DNA of 64,000 nt from Rhodothermales bacterium (GTDB lineage Bacteria; Bacteroidota; Rhodothermia; Rhodothermales; JABDKH01): contig JABDKO010000227.1 in NCBI GenBank assembly GCA_013002165.1, positions 5,142 to 69,141 of the forward strand, given 5' to 3'. This document shows positions 7,751 to 64,000 of the stretch, one piece after another; the first letter of the stretch is position 1; every line of letters begins with the position of its first letter. The notes below the pieces were generated by a model. It saw nothing but the letters and a program-made list of their open reading frames with translations, was not told where the DNA came from and made no database searches. The position numbers and the translations under genes were made by a program.

Positions 7751-8454
7751 TGGCGATAAAAACATGGCTGCTTCGTAAGAAGTTCGACGTACGTTCTGCG
7801 ATAGCAAGGGAGTCCTGGCTCTTCATTCCTCACAATCTCATTGTATGGTGGACCCAGTACAAGGTGAGGAACCATATCGACACTTCGGAATGTCGCGTCG
7901 ATGGGAAAACGGAGTTTGTGCTTGACGGCTTTCAGGGTTCGGGTAACAGCTTCGCAACAGTCACCTTCAAGAACACCCAGGACCATAAGGTTCGTCTCGC
8001 TCATCATCTTCATTCGCCTGCACAGATCATCAAGGCAGTGCAGGCCGGACTTCCGGTGCTGGTTACCATCCGCGAACCGGGTGGAGGAGTCGTATCGTTG
8101 ACCAGTCGATGGACATACGTTACGCTTGAGCAGGGATTGAAAGGTTACATACAGTTCTACGGCAAGCTGATCCCGTTCAGAGATCAGTTCGTTGTCAGTA
8201 CATTCGAGGACACGATCCACTCCTTTGACGACGTTATTCGCCGCGTCAACGACAGGTTTGAAACCGATTTTCAGATTCTGGATTACAGTTCCGGTCTGAC
8301 GAAACCCAGGGCGACTTCCGAAACGGCTTCCTGGGAGACCGAGCGGAATAAGATCAAGGATCAGAAACAGGAGGAACTGAAAGATCCCCGGTATGCCGAT
8401 CTTCTTGCTGAAGCAAGAGGCATTTATTCGCAACTAACAGGCGAAACGGTATAA
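7750..8454 (+). CDS. Hypothetical protein (possibly sulfotransferase/P-loop-like), last gene of the glycan operon
   Basis: Its start overlaps the upstream stop by 1 nt (TAATG). It has a glycine-rich loop (GFQGSGNSFATV). A 247-aa antisense ORF also exists, but that one is Cys/Arg-rich and has no operon logic. Confidence 0.55.
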   Translation: MAIKTWLLRKKFDVRSAIARESWLFIPHNLIVWWTQYKVRNHIDTSECRVDGKTEFVLDGFQGSGNSFATVTFKNTQDHKVRLAHHLHSPAQIIKAVQAGLPVLVTIREPGGGVVSLTSRWTYVTLEQGLKGYIQFYGKLIPFRDQFVVSTFEDTIHSFDDVIRRVNDRFETDFQILDYSSGLTKPRATSETASWETERNKIKDQKQEELKDPRYADLLAEARGIYSQLTGETV

Positions 8455-8525
8455 CCTTTGCCACTGGTATCGTAAAACACGATGTGCCAATTATGACCAG
8501 CCAGGGCATCATGCCTGAAATTTGA

Positions 8526-10652: not shown

Positions 10653-11034
10653 CATTGCAGTCTCAATTCCAATTCCCTCAAGTTACCCTCGTTGTCGCCT
10701 CACTTCTCCTTCGGGTGTACACCGGAAAATCTTGACAGGATCTACACTGGATGACCGTTGTCCGTTCTTTTACCGACATCCAATTTACCTTAAGTTGTTA
10801 TTTCTAAAAGCCGATAATGCTGTCGAATCGTGTTAACAGTTAGCCCATTGTTAACTCGTCCCACAATAAGATTCGGCAGAAAGATTAACGTCATCTAGCC
10901 ACTGTAAGCGACCCAGAGACTGCCACCACAGTCTGATTGAACACCGGTTAGCATGAAGACTGGTTGATGCGGGAGACCACCCGTTATTGGCCGGGACATC
11001 TGTATGCTGGTTGAAAGCCGCGCTTACATACGAG

Positions 11035-31720: not shown

Positions 31721-32494
31721 TTATTTCGGACCCATCCTGATGGCTCCGTCCAGCCGGATGACCTCCGCGTTGATGTACTGGTTTTCGACAATGTGAGCTG
31801 CCAGGCTGCCGTACTCTTCAGGTCGGCCGAGTCGAGACGGAAATGGGACCTGGGATTCCAGAGATGACCGAACCTCGTCTGTCATTCCAGCCATCATGGG
31901 CGTCTCCATAATACCCGGAGCGATCGTGACGACGCGAATTCCGGTGCGAGAAAGATCTCGCGCAATTGGAAGCGTCATTCCGACAACTCCGCCTTTGGAG
32001 GCAGAGTATGCCGCCTGCCCGATCTGGCCATCGTATGCTGCGATGGAGGCAGTACTGATAATTACTCCCCGTTCTCCTGAGGTGCCGGGCTCGTTCTCTG
32101 CGATTGCAGCGGCCGCCAGTCTCGTTACGTTAAACGTTCCGACTAAATTGATATTGATAACCTTCTTGAAGCTTTCGAGGTCATGCGTACCACGACTTCC
32201 AAATGTTTTCCGTCCCAGTACGATTCCTGCACAGTTTACTGCACCGTTAATCGTTCCAAACCTGTCCATCCCTTTATTTATTGCAGCCTGAACATCCTCC
32301 TCACTTGTGACATCCGTCTTTGCGAACACGGCCTGATCGCCGAGTTCGTCCGATCGGGCCTGCCCGTCAACTTCATTGATATCTGCGAGTATCACATTAG
32401 CGCCCAGTTCGACGAAAACACGAGCTGTGCCAAGCCCAAGTCCCGAACTACCGCCGGTAATAAAGAAAGTCGATGAAGATAGCTTCATAGTCAC
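31721..32494 (-). CDS. SDR, 3-hydroxyacyl-CoA dehydrogenase type II-like
   Basis: Motifs are [34 protein letters not shown] and a C-terminal [13 protein letters not shown]-like tail. Confidence 0.85.
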
Positions 32495-32568
32495 TCGAAG
32501 TTTTTATTCTACGTGCCTCGAAGATAGCACAACGCGGCTATGTCCTTCGTTAGTTTTACGCAAACCTG

Positions 32569-33198
32569 ATGTACTCGATCAAGGAAACATATTACACAAT
32601 TCAAGGCGAAGGTCACCACACCGGTCGGCCTGCTGTCTTTCTTAGGTTTGCCGGTTGCAATCTGTGGACGGGGAGAGAGGAGGATCGGGCAAACGCAACC
32701 TGCCGATTCTGTGACACAGAGTTCTTCGGAGTAGATGGGCCGGGCGGAGGGAAGTTCACGTCAGCCTCGGATCTGGCATCTCACGTATCTACATACTGGC
32801 CTGATTCCGAAGATGACAAATTTGTCGTCTGTACAGGGGGTGAACCTGCTCTTCAGATGGATACCGAACTTGTCCGATGTCTTCAAGGTTCAGGTTTTAC
32901 CGTCGCCATTGAAACGAACGGGACACTCCAGATACCTGGCTCAATCGACTGGGTCTGCGTCAGTCCGAAAGCAAATACGGATGTTGTACTCCGGAGCGGG
33001 AACGAGCTGAAGGTTGTCGTACCACAGGATGGAATTGTCCCGGACATGTTCGCGGACTGGGATTTCGATCACTTCTATATCCAGCCGATGGACAGTCCCG
33101 AGCGGGATCAGAATACAGCCTCAGCGCTTGAGTACTGCATGACGCATCCGAAATGGAAGCTCAGTCTTCAGATGCACAAATTTCTTGGAATACCGTAG
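32569..33198 (+). CDS. queE: 7-carboxy-7-deazaguanine synthase (radical SAM)
   Basis: It starts MYSIKETYYTIQGEGHHTGRPAVFLRFAGCNLW and has a Cx14Cx2C cluster motif (C-NLWTGREEDRANAT-C-RF-C). Confidence 0.85.
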   Translation: MYSIKETYYTIQGEGHHTGRPAVFLRFAGCNLWTGREEDRANATCRFCDTEFFGVDGPGGGKFTSASDLASHVSTYWPDSEDDKFVVCTGGEPALQMDTELVRCLQGSGFTVAIETNGTLQIPGSIDWVCVSPKANTDVVLRSGNELKVVVPQDGIVPDMFADWDFDHFYIQPMDSPERDQNTASALEYCMTHPKWKLSLQMHKFLGIP

Positions 33199-33200
33199 GT

Positions 33201-33244
33201 GTTGATAAGGCGTGCCCCAGACGAGGCACGCCCGATTTATCAAC
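33201..33244 (+). other. Long imperfect hairpin directly after the queE stop (possible terminator or structured RNA)
   Basis: GTTGATAA+GGCGTGCC pairs with GGCACGCC+(bulge)+TTATCAAC. No T tract follows. Two further short hairpins follow up to about 33305. Confidence 0.4.
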
Positions 33245-33536
33245 CCCGTACCGGTACCGGCTAATACCGGTTCGGGAAAATGCACGGCCCGGAGGCCGTG
33301 GCACGTATGGCTCGCATCACAACTAAGGCGGTGCGGCGCTGCCTGTGATGCAATGATGAGCCACACAATTGGACAGTGGAACTCCTTACACCGTCCGATA
33401 CTTCTAAGCTCTATATTCTCTTCTTCCAAACCTTGTGCCAAACCTGTAAACAGGTCCAAAAACGTTCACCAGACATGGTTGCTGTTGCAAAACGAATCAG
33501 CCTGTTTCATTATCAATCAGCCACCTCGCTGCGCAT

Positions 33537-34757
33537 ATGAGATTATTCCGATATGTCATTCTTGCCTGTTTCATTGCCGTGCTAGCCTCCTGTCAGGGGC
33601 CGGGAGAGCGAATTATCTTCAGTGACGTTGTGCGGGTGGTGACCTACAACATTGAAGACATTCGCACCGACGATCTAACAGGTAATATTAGACCGAGGCT
33701 CGTCGAGGCGGCCACAACAATCCAGACGTTGTCTCCGGATATTCTTTTGATCAACGAGATGACCTACGATATGCTTGATCCTGAGGGAGTGCGCCCGGGT
33801 CAGAACGCTGCTCGCTTCGCCGAAAAGTATCTATCCAGAGAATGGATACCCGGCGTTCCCGGCATTCAATATTCCACCTGGATGCCGTCGACGAACACAG
33901 GTATCACGAGCGGTTACGACCTTGACAACGATGGCACAGTTGTTACCAGGTATCCACAGATTGCGCAATCCGATGAGGCAGGGAATCCGCCTCGACAAAC
34001 AGCAGCTGAGCGGGCGTTTGGAAACGATTCATGGGGCTTTGGTACCTTCCCGGGTCAATACGGAATGGCGTTGTTCGTCAGGGAAGGGCTTCGAATTGAC
34101 TCGAGTCGGATTCTGACATTTCAGTCCTATCGATGGTCCGATTTGCCAGACGCATTTCAACCGGTGGACGACTTCGGAAACCCGTGGTATTCGGAAGATG
34201 AATGGAAGGCAATGCGCCTTAGCTCAAAAAACCACATTATCGTGCCCGTTGAATTTCCCGATGGAAGGCAGCTGAAGGTCGTTGCAGCGCACCCTACTCC
34301 ACCCGCGTTTGACGGTTCGGAAATGCGGAACAAGAAGAGAAACCACGACGAAATTCGACTTCTTAAGGAAATTCTTCAGCCGGATAGCAGAATCATCAGC
34401 GATCAGGGAGTGACCGGTGCGATCAAGCGGGGCGACCTATACGTTGTCATGGGTGATTTGAACTCTGATCCCGATGAAGGAAGCTCGTTTGGAAACCCGA
34501 TTCTCAATCAACTTCTGGAATCTGGACTCGTCGATTCAGCACTAACACCAGTAGCGCACGACAGCACACTTTCATACTATCCGAACCTTGATCCTGATGA
34601 TACAGCGCAGTGGGGACTCCGTGTCGATTACGTGCTGCCGTCGCCAAATCTGGAAGTTGCCGCGTCTGGTATTATGCGAACCCGCGCCACGGACGGGATT
34701 GAGGTGAGTGATCACTTTCCTGTCTGGGTCGACTTGCGTATCCCCAAAACTCAATGA
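33537..34757 (+). CDS. Endonuclease/exonuclease/phosphatase (EEP) family lipoprotein
   Basis: It has the lipobox FIAVLASC. EEP-like motifs are VVTYNIED, LLINEM, MGDLNSDP and SDHFPVWVDL. Confidence 0.8.
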   Translation: MRLFRYVILACFIAVLASCQGPGERIIFSDVVRVVTYNIEDIRTDDLTGNIRPRLVEAATTIQTLSPDILLINEMTYDMLDPEGVRPGQNAARFAEKYLSREWIPGVPGIQYSTWMPSTNTGITSGYDLDNDGTVVTRYPQIAQSDEAGNPPRQTAAERAFGNDSWGFGTFPGQYGMALFVREGLRIDSSRILTFQSYRWSDLPDAFQPVDDFGNPWYSEDEWKAMRLSSKNHIIVPVEFPDGRQLKVVAAHPTPPAFDGSEMRNKKRNHDEIRLLKEILQPDSRIISDQGVTGAIKRGDLYVVMGDLNSDPDEGSSFGNPILNQLLESGLVDSALTPVAHDSTLSYYPNLDPDDTAQWGLRVDYVLPSPNLEVAASGIMRTRATDGIEVSDHFPVWVDLRIPKTQ

Positions 34758-35194
34758 TGAAAGTTGTTCAACATACCGTGCAGTTGTCCGCAGTACCTCG
34801 CGGCATCCATTTGATAAGCTCGGAAGTGATACGCAGCATTCCCGAACTTGAACATTGTTCTGCAGGATTGCTGTCGGTGTTTATCTGTCACACGTCTGCT
34901 TCGCTATCGATCAATGAGAATGCAAGCCCGGAGGTGCGTACTGATCTCGATTACTTTCTCGACCGGCTTGTTCCTGATGGATTCGACGGATTCAAACATA
35001 CCCTTGAAGGCTCCGATGACATGCCGGCTCACGTAAAAGCAGCGCTGCTTGGTACTAACCTCACGATTCCGGTCTCGGACGGTCGCCTGAGCCTCGGGAC
35101 ATGGCAGGGAATCTATCTTTGTGAGCATCGGAATAGCGGGGGGAGGCGAACGTTGAAGCTCACTTTGACCGGCGACTTTTCGCGAAGCATCTAG
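34754..35194 (+). CDS. yjbQ: YjbQ/UPF0047 family protein (secondary thiamine-phosphate synthase-like)
   Basis: Supporting motifs are HTSASLSINENASPEVRTDL, PAHVKAALLG and LGTWQGIYLCEHR. Confidence 0.85.
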   Translation: MMKVVQHTVQLSAVPRGIHLISSEVIRSIPELEHCSAGLLSVFICHTSASLSINENASPEVRTDLDYFLDRLVPDGFDGFKHTLEGSDDMPAHVKAALLGTNLTIPVSDGRLSLGTWQGIYLCEHRNSGGRRTLKLTLTGDFSRSI

Positions 35195-36621
35195 TCCTCA
35201 ATACCGTACTTCCGCATCAAACGGTAGACTGTCGACCGGGTAACTCCAAGTTTCTCTGCCGTCTTGTTGATGTTGCCGTTGCATGCCTTGTAGGCCTGCT
35301 CAATGGCGAGTTTCTTGACATCTTCCAGAGAAATAATACTGTCCGGATCAATCGCTGCTGATAAGTTGTGGACCAACTGATTGTCAGTATCACTCGTACC
35401 AGCTGCTTCGGGCGCAGGTCCTGTCGATGTTGTGCGCTTCTTGTTGTGACGCGCGGGTAGCATCAAGTCTTCAACAATGATCTCCGGTGTGTCTGAGATG
35501 AGCAGCGCCCGCTCGATGGTGCTCTTCAGTTCCCGGACGTTTCCCGGCCAGGAGTACGACTCAAGCGCAATGGAGGCAGAGCGAGACAATTTCTTATTCT
35601 CGATGTCCGGATGTGCCTCCAGAAATCGTTTGCGGAAATGCTCCGCAAGTGATTCGACGTCGTTACCACGCTTTCTGAGTGGCGGCAACTCTACAGGAAA
35701 TTGGAAAAGCCTGTAGTACAAATCCTCCCGGAACAGCCCCTCGTCCAGCATCTTGTCAATGTCCCTGTTCGTTGCACAAATTACGCGGACGTCTATCCGG
35801 ATAGTGTCAGCACCGCCAACGCGTTGCAGCTCCTGATTTTGAAGTACCCGGAGCAGTTTTGCCTGGAGGCTGAGGTCGAGTTCGCCGATCTCATCCAGAA
35901 AAATCGTCCCGGTATCAGCTTGCTCAAACTTGCCAATCTTCCTTGCATGTGCACCGGTAAACGAGCCCTTCTCGTGACCAAAGAATTCAGATTCAATCAG
36001 TTCAGAAGGAATTGCTGCGCAGTTGACCAGAACGTAGGGTTGGTGACGTCGGGACGAATTGTAGTGAATCGCTTGTGCGACTAATTCCTTTCCTGTTCCG
36101 CTTTCTCCCATAATTGCAACTGTAAGGTCGCCCCGGAGAGTTTTCTTGATCAGCGTAAATACGCGGGCCATTTCGGCACTATGTCCGACCATCCCCTGAA
36201 ATGTGCGGGGTGAGGGAAGCTGATCCTGTAACGACTGAACATGCCGTTTGAGTCGGATTGTCTCGCCTACGTTGCCAGCAATCGTTCTCAGTTTGACGAT
36301 GTCATCATGCCCTTTTGTCACATAGTCAAAAGCGCCTAGCTTGATTGCTTCCAGAGCGACGTTGACAACAGATTGAGCTGAGATCATCACGACGGGAATC
36401 TCCGGGCGGGACTCTTTGATTTTGCGCAGGGTTTCGAGACCTCCCTGACCGGGCATCACAACGTCCAGAAATATCAGATCGGGCTGTTCTTCGAGAGCCG
36501 CGATCGCTTTTTCGCCCGTTTCATAATGGTCGATTCTGTGCTTGCCGCTTTTCCGAAGTTGATAGCGGACAAGCTCAGCGTAGTCTGGGTCGTCGTCGAC
36601 GATAAAAAAGTGGAGCTGCAT
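35191..36621 (-). CDS. Sigma-54-dependent response regulator (REC + AAA+ + Fis HTH, NtrC family)
   Basis: The REC domain has [10 protein letters not shown]. The AAA+ domain has GESGTGKE and a GSFTGA loop (GAFTGA variant). The C-terminal HTH reads [24 protein letters not shown]. Confidence 0.9.
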
Positions 36622-36639
36622 TGAAATTCAGTTAGTGCA

Positions 36640-37791
36640 TCAGGCCATGGCAACGGAGGGTTTGGGTAGTTCGAACCAGAACAAAGAACCGCCTTCCTTT
36701 TGCGGCTCGTATCCTATGTTACCACCCCATCCTTCGACTGTAATCCGGCAAAAGTAGAGGCCGAGGCCTTGCTTGCCGGAATGTTGGTTTCCACGGCCAA
36801 ACTTCTGAAAAAGTCTCGGCATCACGTCTGCCTCGACACCGGGACCCTGGTCCGCGATTCCCGTCCATACGGAGCCGCCTCGATCTTCCACTTTGAGTCG
36901 AATTTCAGACTGCTCTGGAGAATGCCGAATTGCGTTCTCAACGAGATTGAAAATTACTCGCTCCAGGCGCGGCGAATCTGCTACCACACGCGTTTCTGTC
37001 GAGTCGACGTCATCGGTTTCCACAAGCATCGAGACTCGCTCGATATCAGCGACCGGCTTCATCACATTCGCGACTTCCGAGACACATGTAAGAAGACTTG
37101 GCGCCTCGGACGCTGGAACAACATGTGGCAAAAGGGGCTCGACATCACGAGCGAAGGTCGATAGAATTTCTCTGATCAGCTCCTGCATTTTTCCGACCTG
37201 GTTCAATCCAATTTGCAGGAGTTCGGTGCCGTCCGGGGCAACGTGATTATCCTCATCAAGAAGCGTCAGACTACCTTTTATCGAAGCAAGCGGAGTTGAC
37301 AGGTCGTGGACGATGCAATGAAGCAACACTTCTCTCTTGTTAACTTCCTTCAGCAATCGGCTGTACTCGAGACCCTGGTTGCGCCCTTCCTGAAGAAGGC
37401 CCCGGACCGTCGAGTGATCGGTAGTCGGGAATTTGATAAGAAGTAACTGCGTCTTGTTAACTGTCAGTGCGACAGCCTCGAGGACCCAATCCGTGCCATC
37501 AGCATCAACTTCAGTCCATGGTCCCGAAGAAAGCCATTTTGATTCCGCGTGATTCCAATGTTCGAGAGCATCGTCAATGAAATGCTCCAGATATAAAAAG
37601 TCTTTTGCGGGGTACAGGCGTCCAGTGTGCTTCACGGCTGGCCAGATTCTTGGAAGCCATTCCGGAGTTTCACCAACCAATTCAAACGCCATGTCTCCAC
37701 GATGCTTGAGTACCGCGACATCGAGGCTTGACAGAACGCTCGCAGGGACAGACTGTGACAATAGTAACTCTGAGGGTTCTATTCTATTCAT
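36640..37791 (-). CDS. Soluble sensor histidine kinase (HisKA + HATPase_c) with an N-terminal domain of unknown function
   Basis: It has the H-box HCIVHDLSTPLASIKGSL, N-box LVENAIRHSP, DQGPGV and GKQGLGLYF, with no hydrophobic span. ATG 37791 overlaps the GTPase stop by 8 nt. The track GTG 37854 would overlap it by 71 nt. Confidence 0.85.
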   Translation of the reverse strand: MNRIEPSELLLSQSVPASVLSSLDVAVLKHRGDMAFELVGETPEWLPRIWPAVKHTGRLYPAKDFLYLEHFIDDALEHWNHAESKWLSSGPWTEVDADGTDWVLEAVALTVNKTQLLLIKFPTTDHSTVRGLLQEGRNQGLEYSRLLKEVNKREVLLHCIVHDLSTPLASIKGSLTLLDEDNHVAPDGTELLQIGLNQVGKMQELIREILSTFARDVEPLLPHVVPASEAPSLLTCVSEVANVMKPVADIERVSMLVETDDVDSTETRVVADSPRLERVIFNLVENAIRHSPEQSEIRLKVEDRGGSVWTGIADQGPGVEADVMPRLFQKFGRGNQHSGKQGLGLYFCRITVEGWGGNIGYEPQKEGGSLFWFELPKPSVAMA

Positions 37792-38284
37792 TGGGCACGA
37801 GCATTGAGGCAAGGGTTTCGAATGCCTCCTCAACTCCCGTTCCGGTTTTTGCACTTGTCAGGAAAATTTTCCAACCTTCTGACTTTAAGTTGGCCAGATC
37901 GTCGTCCGAAATCTCCCAGTCCTCCTGAAGATCCGCTTTATTTAGCAGTAGGCAAACCGCTAATTTACCTACATCTCCGGAAACCCGCCGGTAGATTAAT
38001 TTTGCCGATTCGAGCGTATCGGCTCGCGAGCCGTCTGCAACCATAAAAATGCCCGACGCACCCCGCAGGTAACTGGTGGACAACTTCTGGAAGCGATCTT
38101 CACCGTTCAGATCCCAAATAAGCATTTCGACTCTGTTAGAGTCAATTTGGATTGTTTTCTTGGAGATCCTGACGCCAACGGTAGTCAGATATTTTTCCGA
38201 AAAGGCATTGTTCACAAAGCGATTGACAAGACTGGTTTTGCCTACTGCGGATGTACCGAGCAGGCAAATCTTCTTTCGGACCAT
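37784..38284 (-). CDS. Ras-superfamily small GTPase (166 aa, G domain only)
   Basis: G1 is GTSAVGKTS, G2 is YLTTVGV, G3 is WDLNGED, G4 is NKAD and G5 is TSAK. ATG 38284 places the P-loop at residues 10-17 as in Ras. The track GTG 38389 extension is rejected. Confidence 0.85.
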   Translation of the reverse strand: MVRKKICLLGTSAVGKTSLVNRFVNNAFSEKYLTTVGVRISKKTIQIDSNRVEMLIWDLNGEDRFQKLSTSYLRGASGIFMVADGSRADTLESAKLIYRRVSGDVGKLAVCLLLNKADLQEDWEISDDDLANLKSEGWKIFLTSAKTGTGVEEAFETLASMLVPNE

Positions 38285-38422
38285 GGAGCGAAATAACGTA
38301 AGAGCCGGGGTAAACGGGATGAGATGGTTAATAAATGCCGATTTGGCTGCGTTTGTGTAGCAAATAACACAATTTGAATGGTTAATCACATATAGTGGAA
38401 TATATCAATATTATACACCCTG

Positions 38423-38438
38423 TGTAATATTGGACCGA
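38423..38438 (+). repeat. Intergenic 16-mer TGTAATATTGGACCGA (copy 2)
   Basis: It is identical to 28604..28619. It lies in the divergent promoter region between the GTPase operon and the coiled-coil gene. Confidence 0.5.
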
Positions 38439-38539
38439 GTTTCATCATCTCGACTCCGTTTCGCAATCAAAGTTGTATTTTGACTTTTTGCAGTGGGATG
38501 CATGTCCCTTCGGGGCAGATCATTAAAACAGTTTTTCCA

Positions 38540-39112
38540 ATGGAAACAAAGAAATATCCGGGCAGCGTGGATGCTGGCTCAAGCCCTGACAATAATGGCA
38601 CTTCAATCCACGACCTGACCGCTCCGGAGGCCCTGCAGCGCATTCGCGCCATCCTTTTCGGCGAAGAGAGTCAGAAAAATGACGCCCGATTTCAACAGAT
38701 TGCACAGCTGATTGACAAGCGACTCGGTGATCTCAAAAGCGACATGGACTCCCGATTGGCGGATGTTGCGACAAGCATCGGGGAAGCTCAGGCCCGCAAT
38801 GCCGAGAGGATCAGCGAAGAGGCAAAGCAGCGGTCGGAGATACTGAACAGACTCGAGCATCTGATTGCTGACGTTGACGCCCGTACAAGTAGTCGTATCG
38901 ATGCTGCTGAAACACGCGTGAACGAAGTCGCTGAAATCAGTCGTCGTGATCTTGCTGAAACCCGCGACCACATGACTGCCGGCGTATCATATCAAATCGA
39001 GCAGCTAAAAGGTTTTGTGGATGATGCCGTTGCCGGCCTCGCCCATGGAAAGGCTGACAAGCAGGCTCTTGCGGATTGGTTCGAGCAGCTATCGTCGCGT
39101 CTTCGAGACTAG
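38540..39112 (+). CDS. Coiled-coil protein of unknown function
   Basis: 190 aa from METKKYPG and rich in heptad-like E/R/L/A stretches. The track start at 38480 is less likely. Confidence 0.6.
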   Translation: METKKYPGSVDAGSSPDNNGTSIHDLTAPEALQRIRAILFGEESQKNDARFQQIAQLIDKRLGDLKSDMDSRLADVATSIGEAQARNAERISEEAKQRSEILNRLEHLIADVDARTSSRIDAAETRVNEVAEISRRDLAETRDHMTAGVSYQIEQLKGFVDDAVAGLAHGKADKQALADWFEQLSSRLRD

Positions 39113-39131
39113 TTCGCCCAAAGATGCAGCT

Positions 39132-40886
39132 ATGAACGACGAGAGTCATATCGAAGAATCATCCACCAATGGCAACAGCGTATTTTCCGAATTCTCGGAG
39201 CTACGCGATCTGTTGCTCGAACCGGAACACAACAAGCTGGAGAGGGCCGACGAGCGCCTCAAGAGACTTGAGGACCGAAAAGTCGATGTCACGGTAGATC
39301 AAGTCAGTCATTTGCTGCCGGAAGCGATTGTACACCGCTCGAAGCAGGATCAAAAGCTTGCCAGCGCGCTCGCGCCGACGGTAGAAAAGACTATCCAGGT
39401 ATCCGTTCGTAGAGATCCTCGTCCAATTGTTGATGCAATCTTTCCGATCATCGGTCCAGCTATTCGAAAGTCCATAGCGGAGGCCCTGTCATCGACCCTT
39501 GAGTCAATAAATCAGTCGATGGAGCATCGTTTCTCATTGACGGCAATTAAGTGGCGCTTGGAGGCTAGGCGGTCGGGGCGGACATTCTCTGAGGTTGCGT
39601 TGAGCCATACGCTGCTGTACCGCATCGAAGAGATCTTTGTGATTGACCGGCAGACCGGCGTATCGCTGGTTCACGTAAGTACAGAGGCCGCAGAATTGCA
39701 CGACGGTTCAGTTGTTTCAAGTATGCTGACGGCCATCCAGGATTTCGTTAAAGACTCGTTTGGGTCAGAAGAAGACGAAGTCCTTGAAACTCTTGAAGTC
39801 GGTGATGTCAACGTCTGGTTTGAGCCGGGTCCACACGCAACAGTAGCTGCCGTCATCCGCGGGATACCGCCACGTTCTTTAAGGGATCACCTCAAGGAGC
39901 TTGTCGAAGTTTTTCATCTCAACTATGCTGATGAACTTGCCACGTTCGAAGGCGATGTGGATCCCTTTCAGGGATCAGTTGCGTTCCTTACATCCGGGCT
40001 GCTTGAACAAAAGCAGGAACGAGAAAAGAAGACAAGCCCATTACTGTGGCTGTTTCTGATCGCTGCTATTTGTGTACTCGGCTGGCTAATCTACCGCGGC
40101 ATAGACGCGCGAAGTGATAAGAACAACCTTCTTGATGCGCTTGACAGTCAGCCTGGCATTGTAGTAACAGACTCGTACACGAAAAGTGGCTACCTGTATG
40201 TCAACGGGTTGAAGGATCCTCTTTCCCGGAGTGTAGAGGAAATCGTTTCTCTGAGTGATGTTAATCCGGAACGAATTGTATTCGACTGGGAGCCGTACCA
40301 CACCCTGTCCCCGGATGTAGTTCGCCAGCGCGCTATTGCGTTGCTTGAGCCACCGGCAACGGTAGAGTTAATGGTTGACGACGGTGTGGTTTTCGCATCC
40401 GGATTTGCTTCCACGAGCTGGATCGAACTTGCATCGGAGCAAGCAAAGTATCTTGCTCCCACGGTACTTTACAATGATGTTGCAGTCGTACATCTCGAGG
40501 ACATTGCAATAGCAGATGCAAGAGATGCTATTGAGTCACTGTGGGTCGGGTTTGCGTTTGGATCATCTGACATTGCCGAAACGGAGCTCGCAAGAATTGA
40601 CAGGTTGACAGGACATATTGCTTCGCTTTCCGCAGCAGCAGAAATCCGCGACATCCCTTTCGCGATACTTGTTTTGGGAGGTGCCAGCGGCAACGCGGAC
40701 GCTGCGACCAACAGGCTGCTAATGGATGAAAGATCTGATAGTGTCAGCCGTGCTCTCGTGGCTCGAGGCATTGACCCAGCCTTGCTCGTGTCACAACAGA
40801 AGAGTGAGGAGTCGAACCTTGAGTATGAGGATGTCGGGCGTGCAAGAAGTGTTGAGCTTCGCGTTCAGCTTGGTGCCCGGCCCTAG
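39132..40886 (+). CDS. Single-pass membrane protein with a cytoplasmic Roadblock/LC7-like region and a periplasmic OmpA/MotB-like C-terminal domain
   Basis: ATG 39132 (MNDESHIEE) is preferred. The TM span is [18 protein letters not shown]. The mid region is [22 protein letters not shown]...[15 protein letters not shown]...[17 protein letters not shown]. The C-terminus reads FAFGSSDI...[34 protein letters not shown]. Confidence 0.7.
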
Positions 40887-42757
40887 GAGGCGTTTCGTTC
40901 GTAAATCACCATTCCGAGTGGCGGAAGGTCAAAGACACCGGCGAAGCGCTCATCGTCATTTTGCTCTTCGCATACTACAGTTTGCGGCACAGAAGTACCG
41001 GATCCCCCGTATGTGCTGTTGTCTGAGCTCAACAGAAGCGACCATTCTCCGGCAGGACAGTTTAGCTCATATCCAGGACGCGGCACCGGTGTGAAGTTGA
41101 AAACGAACAGCAGTTGCTCGTCACCGCTGCGTCGAACGTAGGAAGCAATGCTTTCGCCATGATCCTCGAAAAGGACCCACTCAAAAGATTCACCGGTATC
41201 CTTCTGGAGTGACGGGCGGGTTGTGTACAGGGAATTCAGTTCCGAGACGAGTGCCGCGATCCCGGCATGCAAGACGTCGTCGTAGAGATGCCAGTCAAGT
41301 TCTCCATCCGCGTTCCATTCGCGGATCTGTCCGAATTCGCCTCCCATAAAGAGTAATTTCTTGCCAGGGTGTCCAAACTGATGGGCGAGGAGAAGTCTCA
41401 GGTTTGCAGATTTCTGCCAGGCGTCGCCGGGCATCTTGTTCCACAGACTTCCTTTGCCGTGGACGACCTCGTCATGAGATAGCGGAAGAATGAAATGTTC
41501 GCTGAAAGCGTACCAGAGAGGGAAGGTGAGGTCGTTGTTATGATGTTTACGATTGACAGGATCCTGACTCATGTACCGCAGAGTATCGTGCATCCAACCC
41601 ATATTCCACTTGTGCAGGAAGCCCAGTCCTCCTTCGTAAGTTGGCCTCGTAACCTTGGGCCACGCGGTTGATTCCTCCGCAATCATGTGGACAGACTCGA
41701 AGCGGGAGTACACTATGTCGTTGACTTTTTTCAGGGTCTCAATCGCTTCAAGATTGTCCCTTCCACCATATTGATTCGGTCTCCATTCGTCCCGCGAATA
41801 ATCTCGATACAACATCGAAGCGACCGCATCCACGCGGAGACCGTCAATATGAAACTTGTCTAACCAGAACACTGCGTTTGAGACAAGAAAACTTTGAACA
41901 CCTCCTTTTCCGTAGTCAAAAACATATGTGCCCCAGTCGGGATGTGTTCGCATAAGCGGGTCGGTGTATTCGTACAATGTTGATCCATCGAAGAATACCA
42001 GACCCTGGGAATCCGTTGCAAAGTGGGCTGGAACCCAGTCCAGCAGTACTCCGATTCCTTCCCTGTGCAGATAGTTGATGAGATACTGAAGATCAGCGGG
42101 TGTTCCGTATCGGTATGTCGTCGCGAAATACCCGACAACCTGGTAACCCCACGAACCATAGTACGGGTGTTCCATGACCGGCAGCAGCTCAACATGAGTG
42201 AATCCCAGCTTCTTGACGTGCTTGGCGAGTGGCTCCGCGATTTCACGGAACGTCATAGAGTAGCCGTCATCCCTTTTTCGCCACGAACCGAGGTGGACTT
42301 CGTAGATCGACATTGGCTGATCGAGCTCCTCAGGCCCGGTCCGTGTCGCCATCCAATCGTCGTCGGTCCATTGGTAGTCCAATTCGGAGATGATCGCGGA
42401 CATACCGACCACCGGATTTCCTCCGTGGGCAGGTGCCTCCATTGCAAATGCAAAAGGGTCAGTTTTATCGACGAGATATTTACCGCGCCTGATGCGATAC
42501 TTGTAGTGTTGTCCCGGTTTCGCCGACCTGATATAGGCCTCCCAGAAACCTCCCTCACCACGGTTAGCATGTTTTAGCATGCCCGATTTCTCATTCCAGT
42601 CGTTGAAATCTCCTACCACAGATACGCTGGTAGCGTGAGGAGCCCAGACGCAAAACCAGGTACCCCGTTTATTGGGATGAGCCCCAAGGCGGTCGTATGC
42701 ACCATCATGCGATCCGGCATACCACTTTTCTACATCTGACTTTTTCAGGAATGGCAT
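40883..42757 (-). CDS. glgB: 1,4-alpha-glucan branching enzyme
   Basis: GH13 motifs are [18 protein letters not shown] and AEESTAWP, with an N-terminal CBM48-like region. It is 624 aa. Confidence 0.95.
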
Positions 42758-42863
42758 ATTGTTTTCAAGGACTGCATAATGATCAGATTTCTGGTATATA
42801 TATTGAGCGTTCGGCCGAAATGATGACTATCATCTTACGAATAAGATAATTGCCTTTCGCGGC

Positions 42864-45014
42864 ATGACAAAACCCACCGTTCCTCCGGGAAAGACAAGAC
42901 TACTGCCAGGCAAACCTTACCCGTTAGGTGCTACCTGGGATGGATTAGGAGTTAACTTCGCTATTTACTCTGCGTTTGCCGAGCGAGTCGAACTTGTTCT
43001 GTTTGCCTCTGCTGACTCCGAATTGAACGAATCCGTGATTCTGATCGACAAGACTGGTCCGATCTGGCACGGATATCTTCCCAAACTTCAGCCGGGCCAG
43101 CTATATGGATATCGTGTTCATGGTCCGTACCGGCCCGATCAAGGGCACCGATTCAACCCATACAAGTTGCTGCTCGATCCGTATGCTCACGCAATAGGTC
43201 GATCGCTGAGGCATTCTGACACGTTATACGGGTATGACCTCAACCATCCTGACGCAGACAAGTCAATATCTCGAACGGATAGCGGAGCAGATGCCCCACT
43301 CGGTGCTGTTATTGATGGTACATTCAAGTGGGAGGGCGACGTGCGTCCAAATACTCCGTGGGAAAACACGGTAATTTACGAGACGCACGTGCGCGGGATT
43401 AGCATGCAGCATCCGGGGGTCAGACCGGACCTTCGAGGAACATACCTCGGATTGATATCCGATCCGATTCTGGATCATATAAAAGATCTCGGGATAACTA
43501 CTGTCCAGCTTCTGCCGGTTCATGCAAAAGTTTCAGAACGCCATCTCGTCGAGAAAGGACTTTCGAACTACTGGGGCTATAATACGCTGTCTTACTTCGC
43601 TCCAGAGCCCTCGTACGCAAGCGGCGGTGGTATCAGCGCTGTGCGCGAATTCAAGATGATGGTTCGCGGACTGCACGCCGCAGGCCTTGAGGTCATAATT
43701 GACGTGGTCTATAACCACACCGGAGAGGGAAACAGGCTTGGTCCTACACTTTCCTTCAGAGGAATCGACAGTATGTCGTATTACAAAGAGGATCCGAGTG
43801 ATCTGAGTCGGTTGATTGATTACACCGGGACCGGCAATACGCTCGACGTTGGCAATCCGCAAGTCCTGCAACTGATGATGGACAGTATGCGATACTGGGT
43901 TCAGGAGATGCACGTCGATGGTTTTCGATTTGATCTTGCCGCTGCACTCGCACGGGACCTGTTTGACATCAACATGCTCTCATCTTTCTTCCAGGTTATT
44001 CAACAGGACCCCGTACTCAGTCAGGTAAAACTTATCGCAGAACCCTGGGATGTCGGGCCGGGTGGCTATCAGGTTGGCTCATTTCCGTGGCAGTGGGCCG
44101 AGTGGAATGGTAAATACCGTGATGCTGTTCGGCGTTACTGGATTGCGGACCAGGATGTTGTCGGTGAGTTTGCCTCACGAATCTCCGGTTCGAGCGATTT
44201 GTATGAGCTTTCCGGTAGAAAACCGTTCGCATCTATCAACTTTGTAACCGCGCATGACGGTATGACGCTTGATGATCTTGTCAGCTACGAGCGAAAACAC
44301 AACGAGGCCAATCTGGAGGGCAACCGGGATGGTCATGAGCCATCATACAGTCAGAACTTTGGAGTTGAAGGTCCATCTCGCAAGAAAAAAGTCATCACGG
44401 AGAGAGAGGCCCTGAAGCGCGCCTTGATAGGTACATTGTTTCTATCACAGGGCGTCCCGATGCTCCTTGGAGGAGATGAAATCGGCCGCACGCAAGAGGG
44501 TAACAATAACGCATACTGCCACGACAGCCCGCTGACCTGGTACGATTGGGATCTAGACGAAAGGGATAAACAATTTCTTTCGTTTGTCCGAGATGCCATT
44601 AAATTCAGGAAGCATCACCCTAACTTCAGAAGGCACCGCTTCCTGACGGGGCAAGCAGACGAAAGTGGGGCCAAGGATGTAATGTGGTGGCATCATAGCG
44701 GCCGTGAGATGACGGGCGATGACTGGAGTTCTGGCGGGGTGCTTTCGTTTGGAATGATTCTCCGTGGAGACATGATCCTGGACAGGGATGACAAGGGTGT
44801 CGCGATCGGCGACAGCACATTTCTGGTATTGTTCAACTCGAGAGATCAGTCAGCAATTTTTGACCTGCCGGATCCGGCTCGTTTCGGCGGAACACAGTGG
44901 ACGGTTGTTGACGCAGCTGCGGGTTCGATCATTCGAAAACGTCGCATAAAAGAGTATAGGGTCGAACTCCGGCGCCATGCCATGACTGCCCTGGAATTGA
45001 TAATCGAAGGCTAG
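42864..45014 (+). CDS. glgX: Glycogen debranching enzyme
   Basis: Supporting motifs are [36 protein letters not shown] and LIAEPWD. Confidence 0.95.
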
Positions 45015-63663: not shown

Positions 63664-63823
63664 GTCGTTATGACATTAATTATGTCACTTCGTACCCTGA
63701 CAGCGTCCGGATTCAGGTAATCTTGATTTAGTGTCACACTATATTGAGACAGATAGGGGAGTCTACGTACTGGCACGGCGATTGCTGTTCCTTTGACCGT
63801 CCAGAGAATCAATAAGGAGTTTT

Positions 63824-64000
63824 ATGGCAACCAGAGAGCGACGGGGAATGGTAATCAAGAATACGGATACCCGACCTGTGACTATCGCGATGACTACCAG
63901 AACGATCGAACTTCCGCCCGGCGGCGAAAAACCTGTCACGGCAGATGAAGTGAAAGATGGCACACTGCGTGACCTGCTGCAGGTCCGGGCGATCTCAATT
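63824..64000 (+). CDS. Hypothetical protein, 3' end cut by window edge (not in ORF track)
   Basis: The ATG is preceded by AAGGAG with a 4-nt spacer. The frame stays open for 59 codons to the window end (MATRERRGMVIKNTDTRPVTIAM...). Confidence 0.5.
   Translation, partial: MATRERRGMVIKNTDTRPVTIAMTTRTIELPPGGEKPVTADEVKDGTLRDLLQVRAISI

What the first reader, a model, noticed from the sequence alone, without database searches (positions are those of the whole stretch)
35191..40886. Ras-like GTPase hard-wired to a two-component system, facing a Roadblock-like/OmpA-like membrane protein: candidate uncharacterised signalling module
On the minus strand, a 166-aa Ras-superfamily GTPase is followed by a histidine kinase whose ATG overlaps the GTPase stop (AATGAATAG, 8-nt overlap). 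That kinase has no TM segment and carries an unassigned ~170-aa N-terminal domain. A sigma-54 NtrC-type regulator follows 18 nt later. Divergently transcribed are a coiled-coil protein and a single-pass membrane protein. The cytoplasmic part of the membrane protein contains a segment that by eye resembles Roadblock/LC7 (MglB-like) domains. These domains serve as GAP/GEF platforms for small GTPases in Myxococcus and eukaryotes. Its periplasmic part ends in an OmpA/MotB-like peptidoglycan-binding domain. Taken together, the GTPase may gate kinase activity and sigma-54 transcription in response to an envelope-anchored partner. Prokaryotic small GTPases linked to two-component systems have been predicted bioinformatically but are essentially uncharacterised.
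Basis: partly seen in the sequence, partly recalled or inferred. Interest (0 to 1): 0.65.

Follow-up and report, generated by a model that had tools for sequence, protein, structure and literature searches.

The report
Group 1 Rup GTPase signalling module
This locus is a clear example of a bacterial Rab/Ras-like GTPase signalling module that was predicted from genomes in 2014 but never tested; here it feeds a histidine kinase and a sigma-54 regulator, and its membrane partner is predicted to carry the longin/roadblock fold that regulates small GTPases in eukaryotes.

Summary

The module is not new as a gene set. It matches the 'Group 1 Rup' system of Wuichet & Søgaard-Andersen (2014, PMC4316618) on every defining feature I tested:
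- a Rup GTPase lacking the G3 glutamine;
- a coiled-coil protein;
- a protein with an unknown domain, a TM helix and an OmpA-like domain;
- an output protein whose N-terminus carries an invariant glutamine.

The gene set recurs in many phyla. The gene after the GTPase varies: kinases, sigma-54 activators, cyclases, HD-GYP proteins and PAS-only proteins. I found no experimental study of it.

- The 'unknown' cytoplasmic domain of the membrane protein is predicted to be a longin/roadblock fold. The best match is the Rab-GEF Mon1-Ccz1, and weak Pfam hits point to the same longin families.
- The kinase N-terminus is a PAS-like domain followed by one long helix carrying Gln134 and the phospho-His.
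- The GTPase's nearest solved relatives are Rabs.

Verdict: a real, ordinary member of a known but uncharacterised kind. The mechanism is inferred.

The parts
37784..38284 (-). Rup-type (Rab/Ras-like) small GTPase, 166 aa. G3 reads WDLNGE, with Glu where Ras has the catalytic Gln61. The P-loop is GTSAVGKT.
   Evidence: Pfam Ras E 1.8e-33. The closest solved proteins are Rab5, Rab21, Rab35, Rab1, Sec4 and Rab8 at about 1e-25. It is 49% identical over 162 aa, without gaps, to the Mesorhizobium GTPase in the equivalent locus. Across 70 orthologues the G3 Asp is invariant, and the Gln position is Glu in 44, Ala in 9 and Gln in only 3.
36640..37791 (-). Soluble histidine kinase, 383 aa. It has a PAS-like N-domain (aa ~17-120), one long helix (aa 126-174) carrying invariant Gln134 and phospho-acceptor His162, then the rest of the DHp and the catalytic ATPase domain. 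Its ATG overlaps the GTPase stop by 8 nt.
   Evidence: HisKA and HATPase_c at aa 158-378. The AlphaFold2 model of aa 1-175 has pLDDT 85. Foldseek hits are all PAS/LOV, including the LOV-kinase chimera YF1, 4gcz. No TM segment.
37390..37392 (-). Codon of Gln134 in the kinase. This is the glutamine that is invariant in the N-terminal module of the GTPase-linked output proteins.
   Evidence: Gln134 is the only invariant column in 54 N-terminal modules taken from kinases, cyclases, HD-GYP proteins and PAS-only proteins. It is also retained in stand-alone N-domains and in an N-domain fused to a sigma-54 ATPase. The 2014 paper reports the same invariant Gln.
35191..36621 (-). NtrC-type sigma-54 enhancer-binding response regulator, 476 aa (REC, AAA+, HTH_8), starting 18 nt after the kinase stop.
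   Evidence: Pfam. An orthologue directly follows the kinase in every Rhodothermales locus long enough to show it: L001, L004, L005 and L006.
38540..39112 (+). Cytoplasmic coiled-coil protein, 190 aa, with a conserved N-terminal motif (consensus KIRDILFG..Q....E.RF..LE).
   Evidence: No Pfam family is assigned; the only hits are weak, sub-threshold matches to coiled-coil and helical families. A family HMM finds it in 81 of 84 loci, almost always immediately upstream of the membrane protein gene.
39132..40886 (+). Single-pass membrane protein, 584 aa: a cytoplasmic helical region, a longin/roadblock-like domain, a TM helix and a periplasmic region ending in an OmpA-like domain.
   Evidence: Identical to the public protein HKN43_12700. 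TM helix at aa 304-321. Domain evidence is given in the sub-parts below.
39573..40001 (+). Longin/roadblock-superfamily domain (aa ~148-290) of the membrane protein, on the cytoplasmic side.
   Evidence: AlphaFold2 model from a 59-sequence alignment; pLDDT mostly above 90 for this region. Foldseek against the PDB: top hit Mon1-Ccz1 5ldd_B at E 2.3e-4; Sec22b longin at target TM-score 0.69-0.74; MglB at 2e-3; and the top 50 are almost all from this superfamily. Weak recurrent Pfam hits to Fuz_longin_1 (5 of 27 members, best E 0.059) and Intu_longin_1 (best E 0.022), all below threshold. No Robl_LC7 hit and no PDB sequence hit.
40041..40094 (+). Transmembrane helix, aa 304-321 ([18 protein letters not shown]).
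   Evidence: Hydropathy maximum of 2.36.
40497..40883 (+). Divergent OmpA-like (peptidoglycan-binding type) domain, aa ~456-584. It is preceded by a conserved periplasmic module at aa ~330-455 that may be BON-like.
   Evidence: Pfam OmpA E 0.0094 for this protein, but 57 of 59 relatives match. The family profile hits solved OmpA-like domains at 4e-15. It also aligns to Rv0899 over residues 103-280; Rv0899 has a BON-plus-OmpA architecture by my recollection. Two to four relatives carry a Pfam BON hit.

Best explanation
The locus is a Group 1 Rup ('Rup1') small-GTPase signalling system with a two-component, sigma-54 output.

Shown here (computational evidence):
- Conserved core. A coiled-coil protein, a membrane protein and a Rab/Ras-like GTPase that lacks its own catalytic glutamine recur together in many bacterial phyla.
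- Membrane protein. Its cytoplasmic part is predicted to hold a longin/roadblock-like domain. Its periplasmic part ends in an OmpA-like cell-wall-binding domain.
- Output gene. The gene that follows the GTPase, usually with overlapping or nearly touching stop and start codons, encodes an output protein. That protein almost always begins with the same module: a PAS-like domain plus a helix carrying an invariant glutamine. It ends in interchangeable output domains.
- This window. The output is a soluble histidine kinase followed by its NtrC-type partner.

Inferred mechanism, step by step:
1. The periplasmic part of the membrane protein reports some state of the cell wall or envelope.
2. Its cytoplasmic longin/roadblock domain, probably as a dimer and together with the coiled-coil protein, sets the nucleotide state of the GTPase. 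It would act as an exchange factor or as a GTPase activator, as such domains do for Rab7 (Mon1-Ccz1), Rag (Ragulator) and MglA (MglB).
3. GTP-bound Rup binds the PAS-like domain and helix of the kinase. It thereby changes the register of the helix that runs straight into the phospho-acceptor His162. This switches autophosphorylation in the same way PAS/LOV sensors switch their kinases.
4. The invariant Gln134 may be inserted into the GTPase active site to supply the missing catalytic glutamine. Binding of the output would then also terminate the signal. This idea was already proposed in 2014.
5. The kinase phosphorylates the NtrC-type regulator, which activates sigma-54 promoters. The regulon is unknown.
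For: Identity as a Group 1 Rup system:
- The published description matches component for component.
- The G3 Asp is kept and the G3 Gln is absent, both in the window and in 67 of 70 orthologues.
- Gln134 is invariant in 54 of 54 N-modules.

Functional linkage:
- The core genes co-occur in 75-81 of 84 loci from many phyla. Two gene layouts occur: 64 same-strand and 7 divergent.
- The GTPase-to-output junction overlaps in 26 of 59 pairs and is 0-30 nt in 29 more.
- Outputs vary while the N-module is constant. Of 60 output proteins, 29 are kinases (20 of them hybrids with a REC domain); 4 are sigma-54 AAA+ activators, of which only one (L064) has a clear N-module; 3 are cyclases, 3 are HD-GYP proteins, and several carry only PAS domains.
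- Iterative searches from the kinase-type and from the cyclase-type N-terminus converge on overlapping sets.

Folds:
- Longin/roadblock for the membrane protein.
- PAS plus a continuous helix into the DHp for the kinase.

Other support:
- The GTPase's closest solved relatives are Rabs.
- Sigma-54 output arises independently. In Desulfobacterales a receiver-less sigma-54 activator sits directly after the GTPase with an 8-nt overlap, and in L064 the N-module is fused to a sigma-54 ATPase.
- The kinase and the regulator carry their usual catalytic motifs on reading the sequence: H-box, N, G1, F and G2 boxes; receiver Asp; Walker A; GSFTGA.
Against: - No physical or functional interaction has been tested, here or in the literature I could search.
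- Fold matches are of modest significance. The best Foldseek E-value is 2.3e-4 for the longin-like domain and 1.1e-3 for the PAS-like domain. Both rest on predicted structures. Sequence-level support for longin is below threshold.
- The direction of signal flow, and whether the longin-like domain acts as exchange factor or activator, cannot be read from sequence.
- Gln134 lies in a helix, so its invariance could be structural rather than catalytic. Arg137, invariant in the kinase subgroup, is not conserved in the other output classes.
- A few Bacteroidota have the membrane protein without an adjacent GTPase (L071, L081, L082).
- Two loci have a PP2C phosphatase without the N-module after the GTPase.
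- No sigma-54 promoter was found in the divergent intergenic region.
Confidence: 0.6

Rival explanations
1. Signal flow is reversed. The PAS-containing proteins are the sensors and regulators of the GTPase: their N-module would act as a GAP through Gln134. The OmpA-anchored membrane protein, with the coiled-coil protein, would be the effector. For example, it might change envelope tethering or localise a structure, as MglA directs polar machines.
For: - Stand-alone N-modules of 146-164 aa with no output domain exist in four loci, so the module has a role of its own.
- Many output proteins carry extra PAS or GAF domains that could sense signals.
- The membrane protein and the coiled-coil protein are the most constant parts of the system.
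- MglB-type roadblock proteins act on a GTPase that positions machinery rather than controlling transcription (established knowledge; papers listed).
Against: - The variable C-terminal domains are classic transmitter or output domains: kinase, cyclase, HD-GYP and sigma-54 ATPase. A constant input combined with variable outputs is the usual design of bacterial signalling proteins.
- Apart from the wall-binding domain, the membrane protein has no enzymatic or motor domain.
Confidence: 0.15
2. The longin/roadblock-like domain is only a membrane scaffold. The nucleotide state of Rup would be set by other parts: the coiled-coil protein, the invariant helical segments of the membrane protein (IFPxIGPAIRK and KWRLEA), or intrinsic slow cycling.
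For: - The most conserved residues of the cytoplasmic part include P105, P109-I111, R112, W141 and R142. These lie in helices N-terminal to the longin-like domain.
- The coiled-coil protein is as conserved in occurrence as the membrane protein.
Against: - Invariant or nearly invariant positions also lie inside the longin-like domain: M198, F205, G224, G233, A236, R243, G244 and H262.
- In the characterised examples I know of, a longin or roadblock domain encoded or assembled with a small GTPase contacts that GTPase: MglB, Ragulator, Mon1-Ccz1 and TRAPP (structures listed).
Confidence: 0.12
3. The adjacency is inherited gene order without any functional coupling between the GTPase, the kinase and the membrane protein.
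For: Within Rhodothermales the wider synteny is also conserved. The short-chain dehydrogenase, radical SAM, exo/endonuclease-phosphatase-family and glycogen genes flank the module both in the window and in L001.
Against: The core set recurs in distant phyla with different flanking genes, two different layouts and different output proteins, and with overlapping stop and start codons.
Confidence: 0.02

Closest known systems
Group 1 Rup (Rup1) GTPase system, predicted by Wuichet & Søgaard-Andersen 2014 (Genome Biol Evol 7:57, PMC4316618)
   Same: All four published components are present:
- a small Rup GTPase without the G3 Gln;
- a coiled-coil cytoplasmic protein;
- a protein with a conserved unknown domain, a TM helix and an OmpA domain;
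- an output protein (here a histidine kinase, one of the two typical types named in the paper) whose N-terminus has an invariant Gln.

The published hypothesis, a conservon-like membrane signalling complex with the Gln supplied in trans, is the one adopted here.
   Different: The paper left the membrane protein's cytoplasmic domain and the output N-terminus as 'unknown', and counted 0 of 121 Rup GTPases as coupled to MglB homologues.

Here the first is predicted to be longin/roadblock-like and the second PAS-like.

Outputs seen here but not named in the passages I read include cyclases, HD-GYP proteins, receiver-less sigma-54 activators, PAS-only proteins and stand-alone N-modules. The NtrC gene downstream is a feature of the Rhodothermales lineage.
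Actinobacterial conservon / actinobacterial G protein system (CvnA-D; e.g. PMC13343842)
   Same: A small Ras-superfamily GTPase is encoded with a histidine kinase and a roadblock-type domain. The set is thought to form a membrane-associated signalling complex, and its signal path is also poorly understood.
   Different: - The conservon GTPase belongs to the MglA family (Group 2), not to Rup.
- Its roadblock protein is a separate small MglB-type protein that is detectable by sequence.
- Its kinase is itself the membrane sensor.
- It has a DUF742 protein, and no OmpA or coiled-coil partner.
- It is confined to Actinomycetota.
MglA-MglB polarity module of Myxococcus and Thermus
   Same: A small GTPase is paired with a roadblock-superfamily regulator. 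MglB is among the structural matches of the membrane protein's domain (3t12_C at E 2e-3, 3t1s).
   Different: - MglA lacks the G3 Asp, which is invariant here.
- By my recollection MglA has its own catalytic Gln, which this GTPase lacks.
- MglB is a soluble dimer, not a membrane-anchored multi-domain protein.
- There is no kinase output.
- The 2014 tree separates the Rup and MglA families.
Eukaryotic Rab with longin-domain exchange factors (Mon1-Ccz1, Fuzzy-Inturned, BLOC-3, TRAPP, DENN)
   Same: The GTPase's closest solved relatives are Rabs. The best structural match of the partner's domain is Mon1-Ccz1 bound to Ypt7. The only recurrent weak Pfam hits are to the first longin domains of the FUZ/MON1/HPS1 and INTU/CCZ1/HPS4 families.
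   Different: There is a single longin-like domain on a wall-anchored bacterial membrane protein, not a tri-longin heterodimer. There is no membrane traffic; the output is a kinase or a nucleotide-signalling enzyme. Homology as opposed to fold resemblance is not established.
PAS/LOV-histidine kinases (e.g. YF1, 4gcz) and NtrB-NtrC type sigma-54 two-component systems
   Same: A PAS-like core is followed by a continuous helix into the DHp phospho-acceptor helix. The cognate REC, AAA+ and HTH regulator is encoded next door.
   Different: The PAS-like domain matches no Pfam PAS model, and I saw no sign of a cofactor site. Its proposed ligand is a GTPase rather than a small molecule or light.

Membership tests
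Group 1 Rup GTPase system (Wuichet & Søgaard-Andersen 2014) | Small (150-240 aa) Ras-superfamily GTPase of the Rup clade, with the conserved Asp kept in G3, unlike MglA | tested here: met
   166 aa, Pfam Ras 1.8e-33. G3 is DLNG. The Asp is invariant in 70 orthologues. The best PDB relatives are Rabs, not MglA. It is 49% identical to the GTPase of the equivalent Mesorhizobium locus; a Mesorhizobium loti GTPase (mll3243) was the paper's Rup reference sequence. No phylogenetic tree with the published set was built.
Group 1 Rup GTPase system (Wuichet & Søgaard-Andersen 2014) | Catalytic Gln of the G3 motif absent | tested here: met
   The window has Glu at that position. Across 70 orthologues it is Glu in 44, Ala in 9, Thr in 4 and Gln in only 3.
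Group 1 Rup GTPase system (Wuichet & Søgaard-Andersen 2014) | Adjacent gene for a cytoplasmic coiled-coil protein | tested here: met
   38540-39112 (+). Found in 81 of 84 loci.
Group 1 Rup GTPase system (Wuichet & Søgaard-Andersen 2014) | Adjacent gene for a protein with a conserved unknown domain, a TM helix and a C-terminal OmpA domain | tested here: met
   39132-40886 (+). TM helix at aa 304-321. The OmpA match is weak in this protein but found in 57 of 59 relatives.
Group 1 Rup GTPase system (Wuichet & Søgaard-Andersen 2014) | Adjacent signal-output protein (GGDEF/EAL or histidine kinase) whose N-terminal region has an invariant Gln | tested here: met
   The histidine kinase overlaps the GTPase stop. 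Gln134 is invariant in 54 of 54 N-modules.
MglA/MglB module | GTPase of MglA type (no G3 Asp; own catalytic residues), coupled to a separate MglB protein detectable as Robl_LC7 | tested here: not met
   The G3 Asp is present. No Robl_LC7 hit in any of the five proteins or in 59 relatives of the membrane protein.
Actinobacterial conservon (CvnA-D) | Membrane HAMP histidine kinase, MglB-type protein, DUF742 protein and MglA-type GTPase in one operon | tested here: not met
   The kinase is soluble and has no HAMP hit. None of the five proteins of the module matches DUF742. The GTPase is Rup-type.
Longin/roadblock structural superfamily | Five-stranded antiparallel sheet packed against helices, in the order b-b-a-b-b-b-a(-a), matching solved longin or roadblock domains | tested here: met
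Longin/roadblock structural superfamily | Sequence-level homology to a curated longin or roadblock family | tested here: inconclusive
   Only sub-threshold Pfam hits: Fuz_longin_1 in 5 of 27 members (best E 0.059) and Intu_longin_1 (best E 0.022). The domain profile found nothing relevant among PDB sequences.
Longin/roadblock structural superfamily | Direct binding to, and regulation of, a small GTPase | not testable with these tools
   No multimer prediction or experiment was available.
PAS domain | PAS fold (b-b-a-a-a-b-b-b) followed by a C-terminal signalling helix | tested here: met
   This rests on a predicted structure. The model has pLDDT 85. All top Foldseek hits are PAS/LOV, best E 1.1e-3. 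No Pfam PAS hit.
NtrC-type sigma-54 two-component system | HisKA and HATPase_c kinase, plus a REC, sigma-54 AAA+ and Fis-type HTH regulator | tested here: met
   Pfam. The GAFTGA-type loop reads GSFTGA in the sequence. Phosphotransfer was not tested.
OmpA-like peptidoglycan-binding domain | Match to the OmpA C-terminal-like family above the curated threshold | tested here: inconclusive
   The window protein scores 16.7 bits against a cut-off of 27.2. Relatives and the family profile match clearly. The peptidoglycan-contact residues of this copy look degenerate by eye and were not analysed further.

The most novel reading that the evidence does not exclude
The Rup1 GTPase and the longin-like domain of its membrane partner may be true homologues of the eukaryotic pairing of Rab GTPases with longin-domain exchange factors (Mon1-Ccz1, Fuzzy-Inturned, BLOC-3). 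On this reading a 'Rab-like GTPase plus longin regulator' unit existed in bacteria, wired to cell-envelope sensing and to transcriptional or second-messenger outputs, before or independently of its use in eukaryotic membrane traffic. The output protein's invariant Gln would act as a catalytic finger supplied in trans, making each output protein both effector and GAP.
Probability: 0.2. Interest if true: 0.8.

Novelty: new member of a known kind. Interest (0 to 1): 0.5.

Why it matters
- **No experimental study found.** Rup1 GTPases are the bacterial group that published trees and clustering place with eukaryotic Rab/Ras/Rho/Ran and Asgard RasL. I found no experimental study of them in the open literature I could search.
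- **It is a major signalling design.** The membrane partner's domain family has about 5,600 cluster representatives at 50% identity, and it occurs in at least 591 species-level genomes.
- **Possible unifying rule.** If the partner's domain really is a longin/roadblock platform, the rule 'small GTPases are regulated on longin/roadblock platforms' would extend to the one prokaryotic Ras-superfamily group that was reported to lack such a partner. That would give a bacterial system in which Rab-type regulation could be dissected.
- **What the window itself offers.** It provides a compact, fully soluble kinase version of the output. It sits next to its sigma-54 regulator, which suits in-vitro reconstitution.

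Tried and rejected
- **Word-indexed homologue search with the kinase N-terminus alone (aa 1-158).** It found nothing, not even the protein itself. The full-length kinase was then used.
- **Pairwise BLASTP of the kinase N-terminus against the Mesorhizobium cyclase N-terminus.** No similarity. The link appears only through iterative profile searches over 64 output proteins and in the shared invariant Gln.
- **Profile of the longin-like region against PDB sequences.** No relevant hit.
- **Possible shared N-terminal motif** between the coiled-coil protein (IRxILFG) and the membrane protein (LRxLLL). hhalign aligns them in register, but P is 0.054 and probability 1%, so it is not significant.
- **Sigma-54 promoter scan.** There were 38 near-matches against 27 +/- 5 expected, which is no real enrichment. 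None lies in the module's intergenic region. The one perfect site is 23 kb away.
- **N-termini of the Desulfobacterales sigma-54 activators** match the N-module profile only marginally (E 0.002-0.01 in a tiny database). The PP2C proteins do not match at all.
- **MglA/MglB and conservon membership** were considered and rejected on defining features.

Full report
**1. The observation**

On the minus strand:
- A 166-aa GTPase lies at 37784-38284.
- A 383-aa histidine kinase follows. Its ATG at 37791 lies inside the last codons of the GTPase gene (CCC AAT GAA TAG read as A ATG AAT AGA), giving an 8-nt overlap.
- A 476-aa regulator at 35191-36621 starts 18 nt after the kinase stop.

On the plus strand, divergently transcribed:
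- A 190-aa protein lies at 38540-39112.
- A 584-aa protein lies at 39132-40886.

Pfam assigns:
- Ras (E 1.8e-33) to the GTPase;
- HisKA and HATPase_c to kinase aa 158-378, and nothing before that;
- REC, Sigma54_activat (1.4e-69), AAA lid and HTH_8 to the regulator;
- only sub-threshold hits, to coiled-coil and helical families, for the 190-aa protein;
- a sub-threshold OmpA match (E 0.0094) to the C-terminus of the 584-aa protein.

Hydropathy shows one TM helix in the 584-aa protein, at aa 304-321. The kinase has none. Two of the products are identical to public annotations of a Rhodothermales metagenome-assembled genome. This also supports the start codons chosen.

**2. Conservation of the neighbourhood**

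The membrane protein has more than 1,800 database relatives.
- A relative with 44% identity, on a 2.2-Mb contig, has the same five-gene layout as the window.
- In Mesorhizobium the order is: coiled-coil-like protein, a longer OmpA-family membrane protein, a 164-aa Ras-like GTPase, an adenylate/guanylate cyclase, then a cyclic-nucleotide-gated channel. That GTPase is 49% identical to the window's over 162 aa, without a gap.

A scan of one genome per species found at least 591 species encoding the cytoplasmic domain. I fetched the 80 best loci. They come from Acidobacteriota, Rhodothermales, Dehalococcoidia, Desulfobacterales, Planctomycetota, Gloeobacterales, Gemmatimonadales, Mariprofundaceae, Gammaproteobacteria and Bacteroidota.

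With family HMMs built from these loci:
- The coiled-coil gene is present in 81 of 84 loci.
- The GTPase is present in 74, plus one frameshifted copy.
- Of the remaining loci, six end at or next to the membrane gene. Three Bacteroidota loci truly lack an adjacent GTPase.

The usual layout is coiled-coil, membrane protein, GTPase, then output, all on one strand (64 loci). The divergent layout of the window occurs in 7 loci, from Rhodothermales and Desulfobacterales. The GTPase and the following gene overlap in 26 of 59 pairs and are 0-30 nt apart in 29 more.

**3. The variable output and its constant N-terminus**

The gene after the GTPase encodes very different proteins. Of 60:
- 29 are histidine kinases, 20 of them hybrids with a receiver domain and 19 with an Hpt domain.
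- About a dozen have only PAS domains.
- 4 are sigma-54 AAA+ activators.
- 3 are cyclases.
- 3 are HD-GYP-type (HD_5) proteins.
- 2 are PP2C phosphatases.

Pfam assigns nothing to the first ~150 residues of these proteins. Two sequence types of N-terminus are apparent: kinase-like and cyclase-like. They show no pairwise BLAST similarity. However, jackhmmer runs started from each type converge on overlapping sets. In the joint alignment of 54 N-termini the only invariant column is Gln134 (window kinase numbering), followed by Leu141 at 98%.

The same module also occurs alone, as 146-164 aa proteins upstream of the coiled-coil gene in four loci. In L064 it is fused, via PAS domains, to a sigma-54 ATPase. 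In Desulfobacterales a receiver-less sigma-54 activator follows the GTPase with an 8-nt overlap; its N-terminus matches the module only marginally. In Rhodothermales the kinase is always followed by the NtrC-type gene.

**4. This is the published Group 1 Rup system**

Wuichet & Søgaard-Andersen (2014) divided prokaryotic Ras-superfamily small GTPases into the MglA and Rup families. For Group 1 Rup they described a conserved neighbourhood with four parts:
- the rup gene;
- a coiled-coil cytoplasmic protein;
- an output module, typically GGDEF/EAL or a histidine kinase, whose N-terminal region has an invariant glutamine.

They noted that Group 1 Rup lacks the catalytic G3 glutamine and proposed that it is supplied in trans. 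They compared the system to the actinobacterial conservon. They counted none of 121 Rup proteins as coupled to MglB homologues, and stated that no Rup protein had been characterised.

The window meets each defining feature. The G3 Asp is kept: it is invariant in 70 orthologues, whereas MglA lacks it. The Gln position is Glu in the window and is Gln in only 3 of 70. The three partner genes are as described.

Later papers use 'Rup1' only as a phylogenetic label. They place it with eukaryotic Rab/Ras/Rho/Ran and Asgard RasL. My searches found no functional or structural study. The library holds open-access papers and preprints only.

**5. What the 'unknown' domains look like**

*Membrane protein.* An AlphaFold2 model of aa 1-300, built from a 59-sequence alignment (mean pLDDT 80), shows long helices up to aa 160. 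These are followed by a compact b-b-a-b-b-b-a-a unit at aa 161-288, with pLDDT mostly above 90.

Foldseek against the PDB returns, in its top 50, almost only longin or roadblock proteins:
- Mon1-Ccz1 in complex with Ypt7 (E 2.3e-4);
- AP-complex sigma subunits and zeta-COP;
- Sec22b and VAMP7 longin domains (target TM-score up to 0.74);
- TRAPP subunits, Rag C-terminal domains and LAMTOR;
- the CPLANE complex;
- MglB (2e-3) and an Asgard roadblock protein.

I therefore treat the fold as well supported for a prediction, and homology as open.

*Kinase N-terminus.* The model of aa 1-175 (pLDDT 85) is a PAS-type b-b-a-a-a-b-b-b core followed by a single helix, aa 126-174. The helix contains Gln134 and runs into the H-box with His162, 28 residues later. 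All top structural matches are PAS or LOV domains, including short LOV proteins with their J-alpha helix and the LOV-kinase chimera YF1.

The segment 134-140 (Q-x-A-R-D/N-x-x) is polar, whereas the positions after it show a hydrophobic repeat. This neither proves nor excludes a catalytic role for the glutamine.

*Periplasmic part.* The OmpA-like domain is clear at family level. The conserved module before it aligns with the region preceding the OmpA-like domain of Rv0899, and a few relatives have Pfam BON hits.

*GTPase.* Its closest solved relatives are Rab5, Rab21, Rab35, Rab1, Sec4 and Rab8 (about 1e-25). The residue aligned with Ras Gly12 is Phe in 54 of 70 orthologues and Ser in the window. 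Together with the missing Gln, this argues by inference for slow intrinsic hydrolysis and a non-canonical activation mechanism.

**6. Most likely mechanism**

Shown by computation:
- the conserved gene set;
- the tight coupling of the GTPase gene to an output gene;
- the constant N-module with its invariant Gln;
- the predicted folds;
- the intact kinase and regulator motifs.

Inferred:
- The wall-anchored membrane protein, with the coiled-coil protein, sets the nucleotide state of Rup through its longin/roadblock-like domain.
- Rup-GTP binds the PAS-like domain and helix of the kinase and switches it through the continuous helix.
- Gln134 may complete the GTPase active site, so that the output protein also ends the signal.
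- The NtrC-type protein then activates sigma-54 promoters.

Which way the longin-like domain acts (exchange or activation), what the periplasmic part senses, and what the regulon is all remain unknown.

The main rival reverses the flow, making the PAS proteins the inputs and the envelope protein the effector. The stand-alone N-modules give it some support. The catalogue of classic output domains argues against it.

**7. Comparison, novelty and verdict**

The locus is a member of the Group 1 Rup system, with all tested defining features met. It works like, but is not a member of, the conservon or the MglA/MglB module; defining features of both are not met.

As a gene set it is already described, so the finding is a new member of a known kind. 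The parts that I did not find in the literature are:
- the longin/roadblock prediction for the partner protein;
- the PAS-plus-helix architecture of the output N-module;
- the wider range of outputs.

These make a ten-year-old hypothesis directly testable and hint at a Rab-plus-longin pairing in bacteria. They remain predictions. Interest is moderate, at 0.5.

Noticed in passing
window 63771-63786 (+), with ATG at 63825: A perfect sigma-54 promoter consensus (TGGCACGGCGATTGCT) lies in an intergenic stretch 38 nt upstream of an ATG preceded by AAGGAG. The gene (MATRERRGMVIKNTDTRPV...) runs off the end of the window. It is the only exact match in 64 kb and could be a target of one of the genome's sigma-54 activators. 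Nothing links it to this module.
   Followed up: partly
L002 and L003 (Mesorhizobium), 7307-13471: In Mesorhizobium the Rup GTPase is followed by an adenylate/guanylate cyclase and then a cyclic-nucleotide-binding ion channel. This suggests a GTPase to cNMP to channel pathway. The membrane protein there carries three tandem copies of the ~125-aa periplasmic module.
   Followed up: partly
L021, L022, L029, L035 (Dehalococcoidia): In these loci the partner protein is only 336-348 aa, too short to include the periplasmic and OmpA-like part. The output is an N-module plus HD-GYP (HD_5) protein, followed by a separate histidine kinase gene.
   Followed up: partly
L071, L081, L082 (Bacteroidota and Rhodothermaceae): The membrane protein occurs without an adjacent GTPase or output gene. 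In L082 it sits between rpsP-rimM and a solute-binding protein gene. Either the partners are encoded elsewhere or the protein has a GTPase-independent role.
   Followed up: partly
L026 and L074: A PP2C-type phosphatase without the PAS-like N-module follows the GTPase gene. This is an exception to the constant N-module rule.
   Followed up: no
window 38540-38700 and 39190-39290: The coiled-coil protein (consensus KIRDILFG.Q....E.RF..LE) and the N-terminus of the membrane protein (consensus ELR.LLL.PEQ..L..L..RL..LE) carry a similar short motif. hhalign aligns them in register, but the match is not significant (P 0.054).
   Followed up: yes
P0241 (database protein, 2171 aa): The best hit of the longin-like domain profile is a 2171-aa protein with three matching stretches. 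It may be a multi-copy or fusion architecture of this domain.
   Followed up: no
membrane protein aa 105-115 and 141-144 (window 39444-39476 and 39552-39563): The invariant residues outside the longin-like domain cluster in two helices: IFPxIGPAIRK (P105, P109, A110, I111, R112, I115) and KWRLEA (W141, R142, E144). R142 is a possible arginine finger.
   Followed up: no
window 31721-35194 and 40883-45014, compared with L001: The genes flanking the module are in the same order in a 44%-identity relative. They are a short-chain dehydrogenase, a radical-SAM enzyme that looks QueE-like by eye, an exo/endonuclease-phosphatase-family protein, and alpha-amylase-family enzymes that look like the glycogen enzymes GlgB and GlgX. 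This is lineage synteny, not part of the system.
   Followed up: yes
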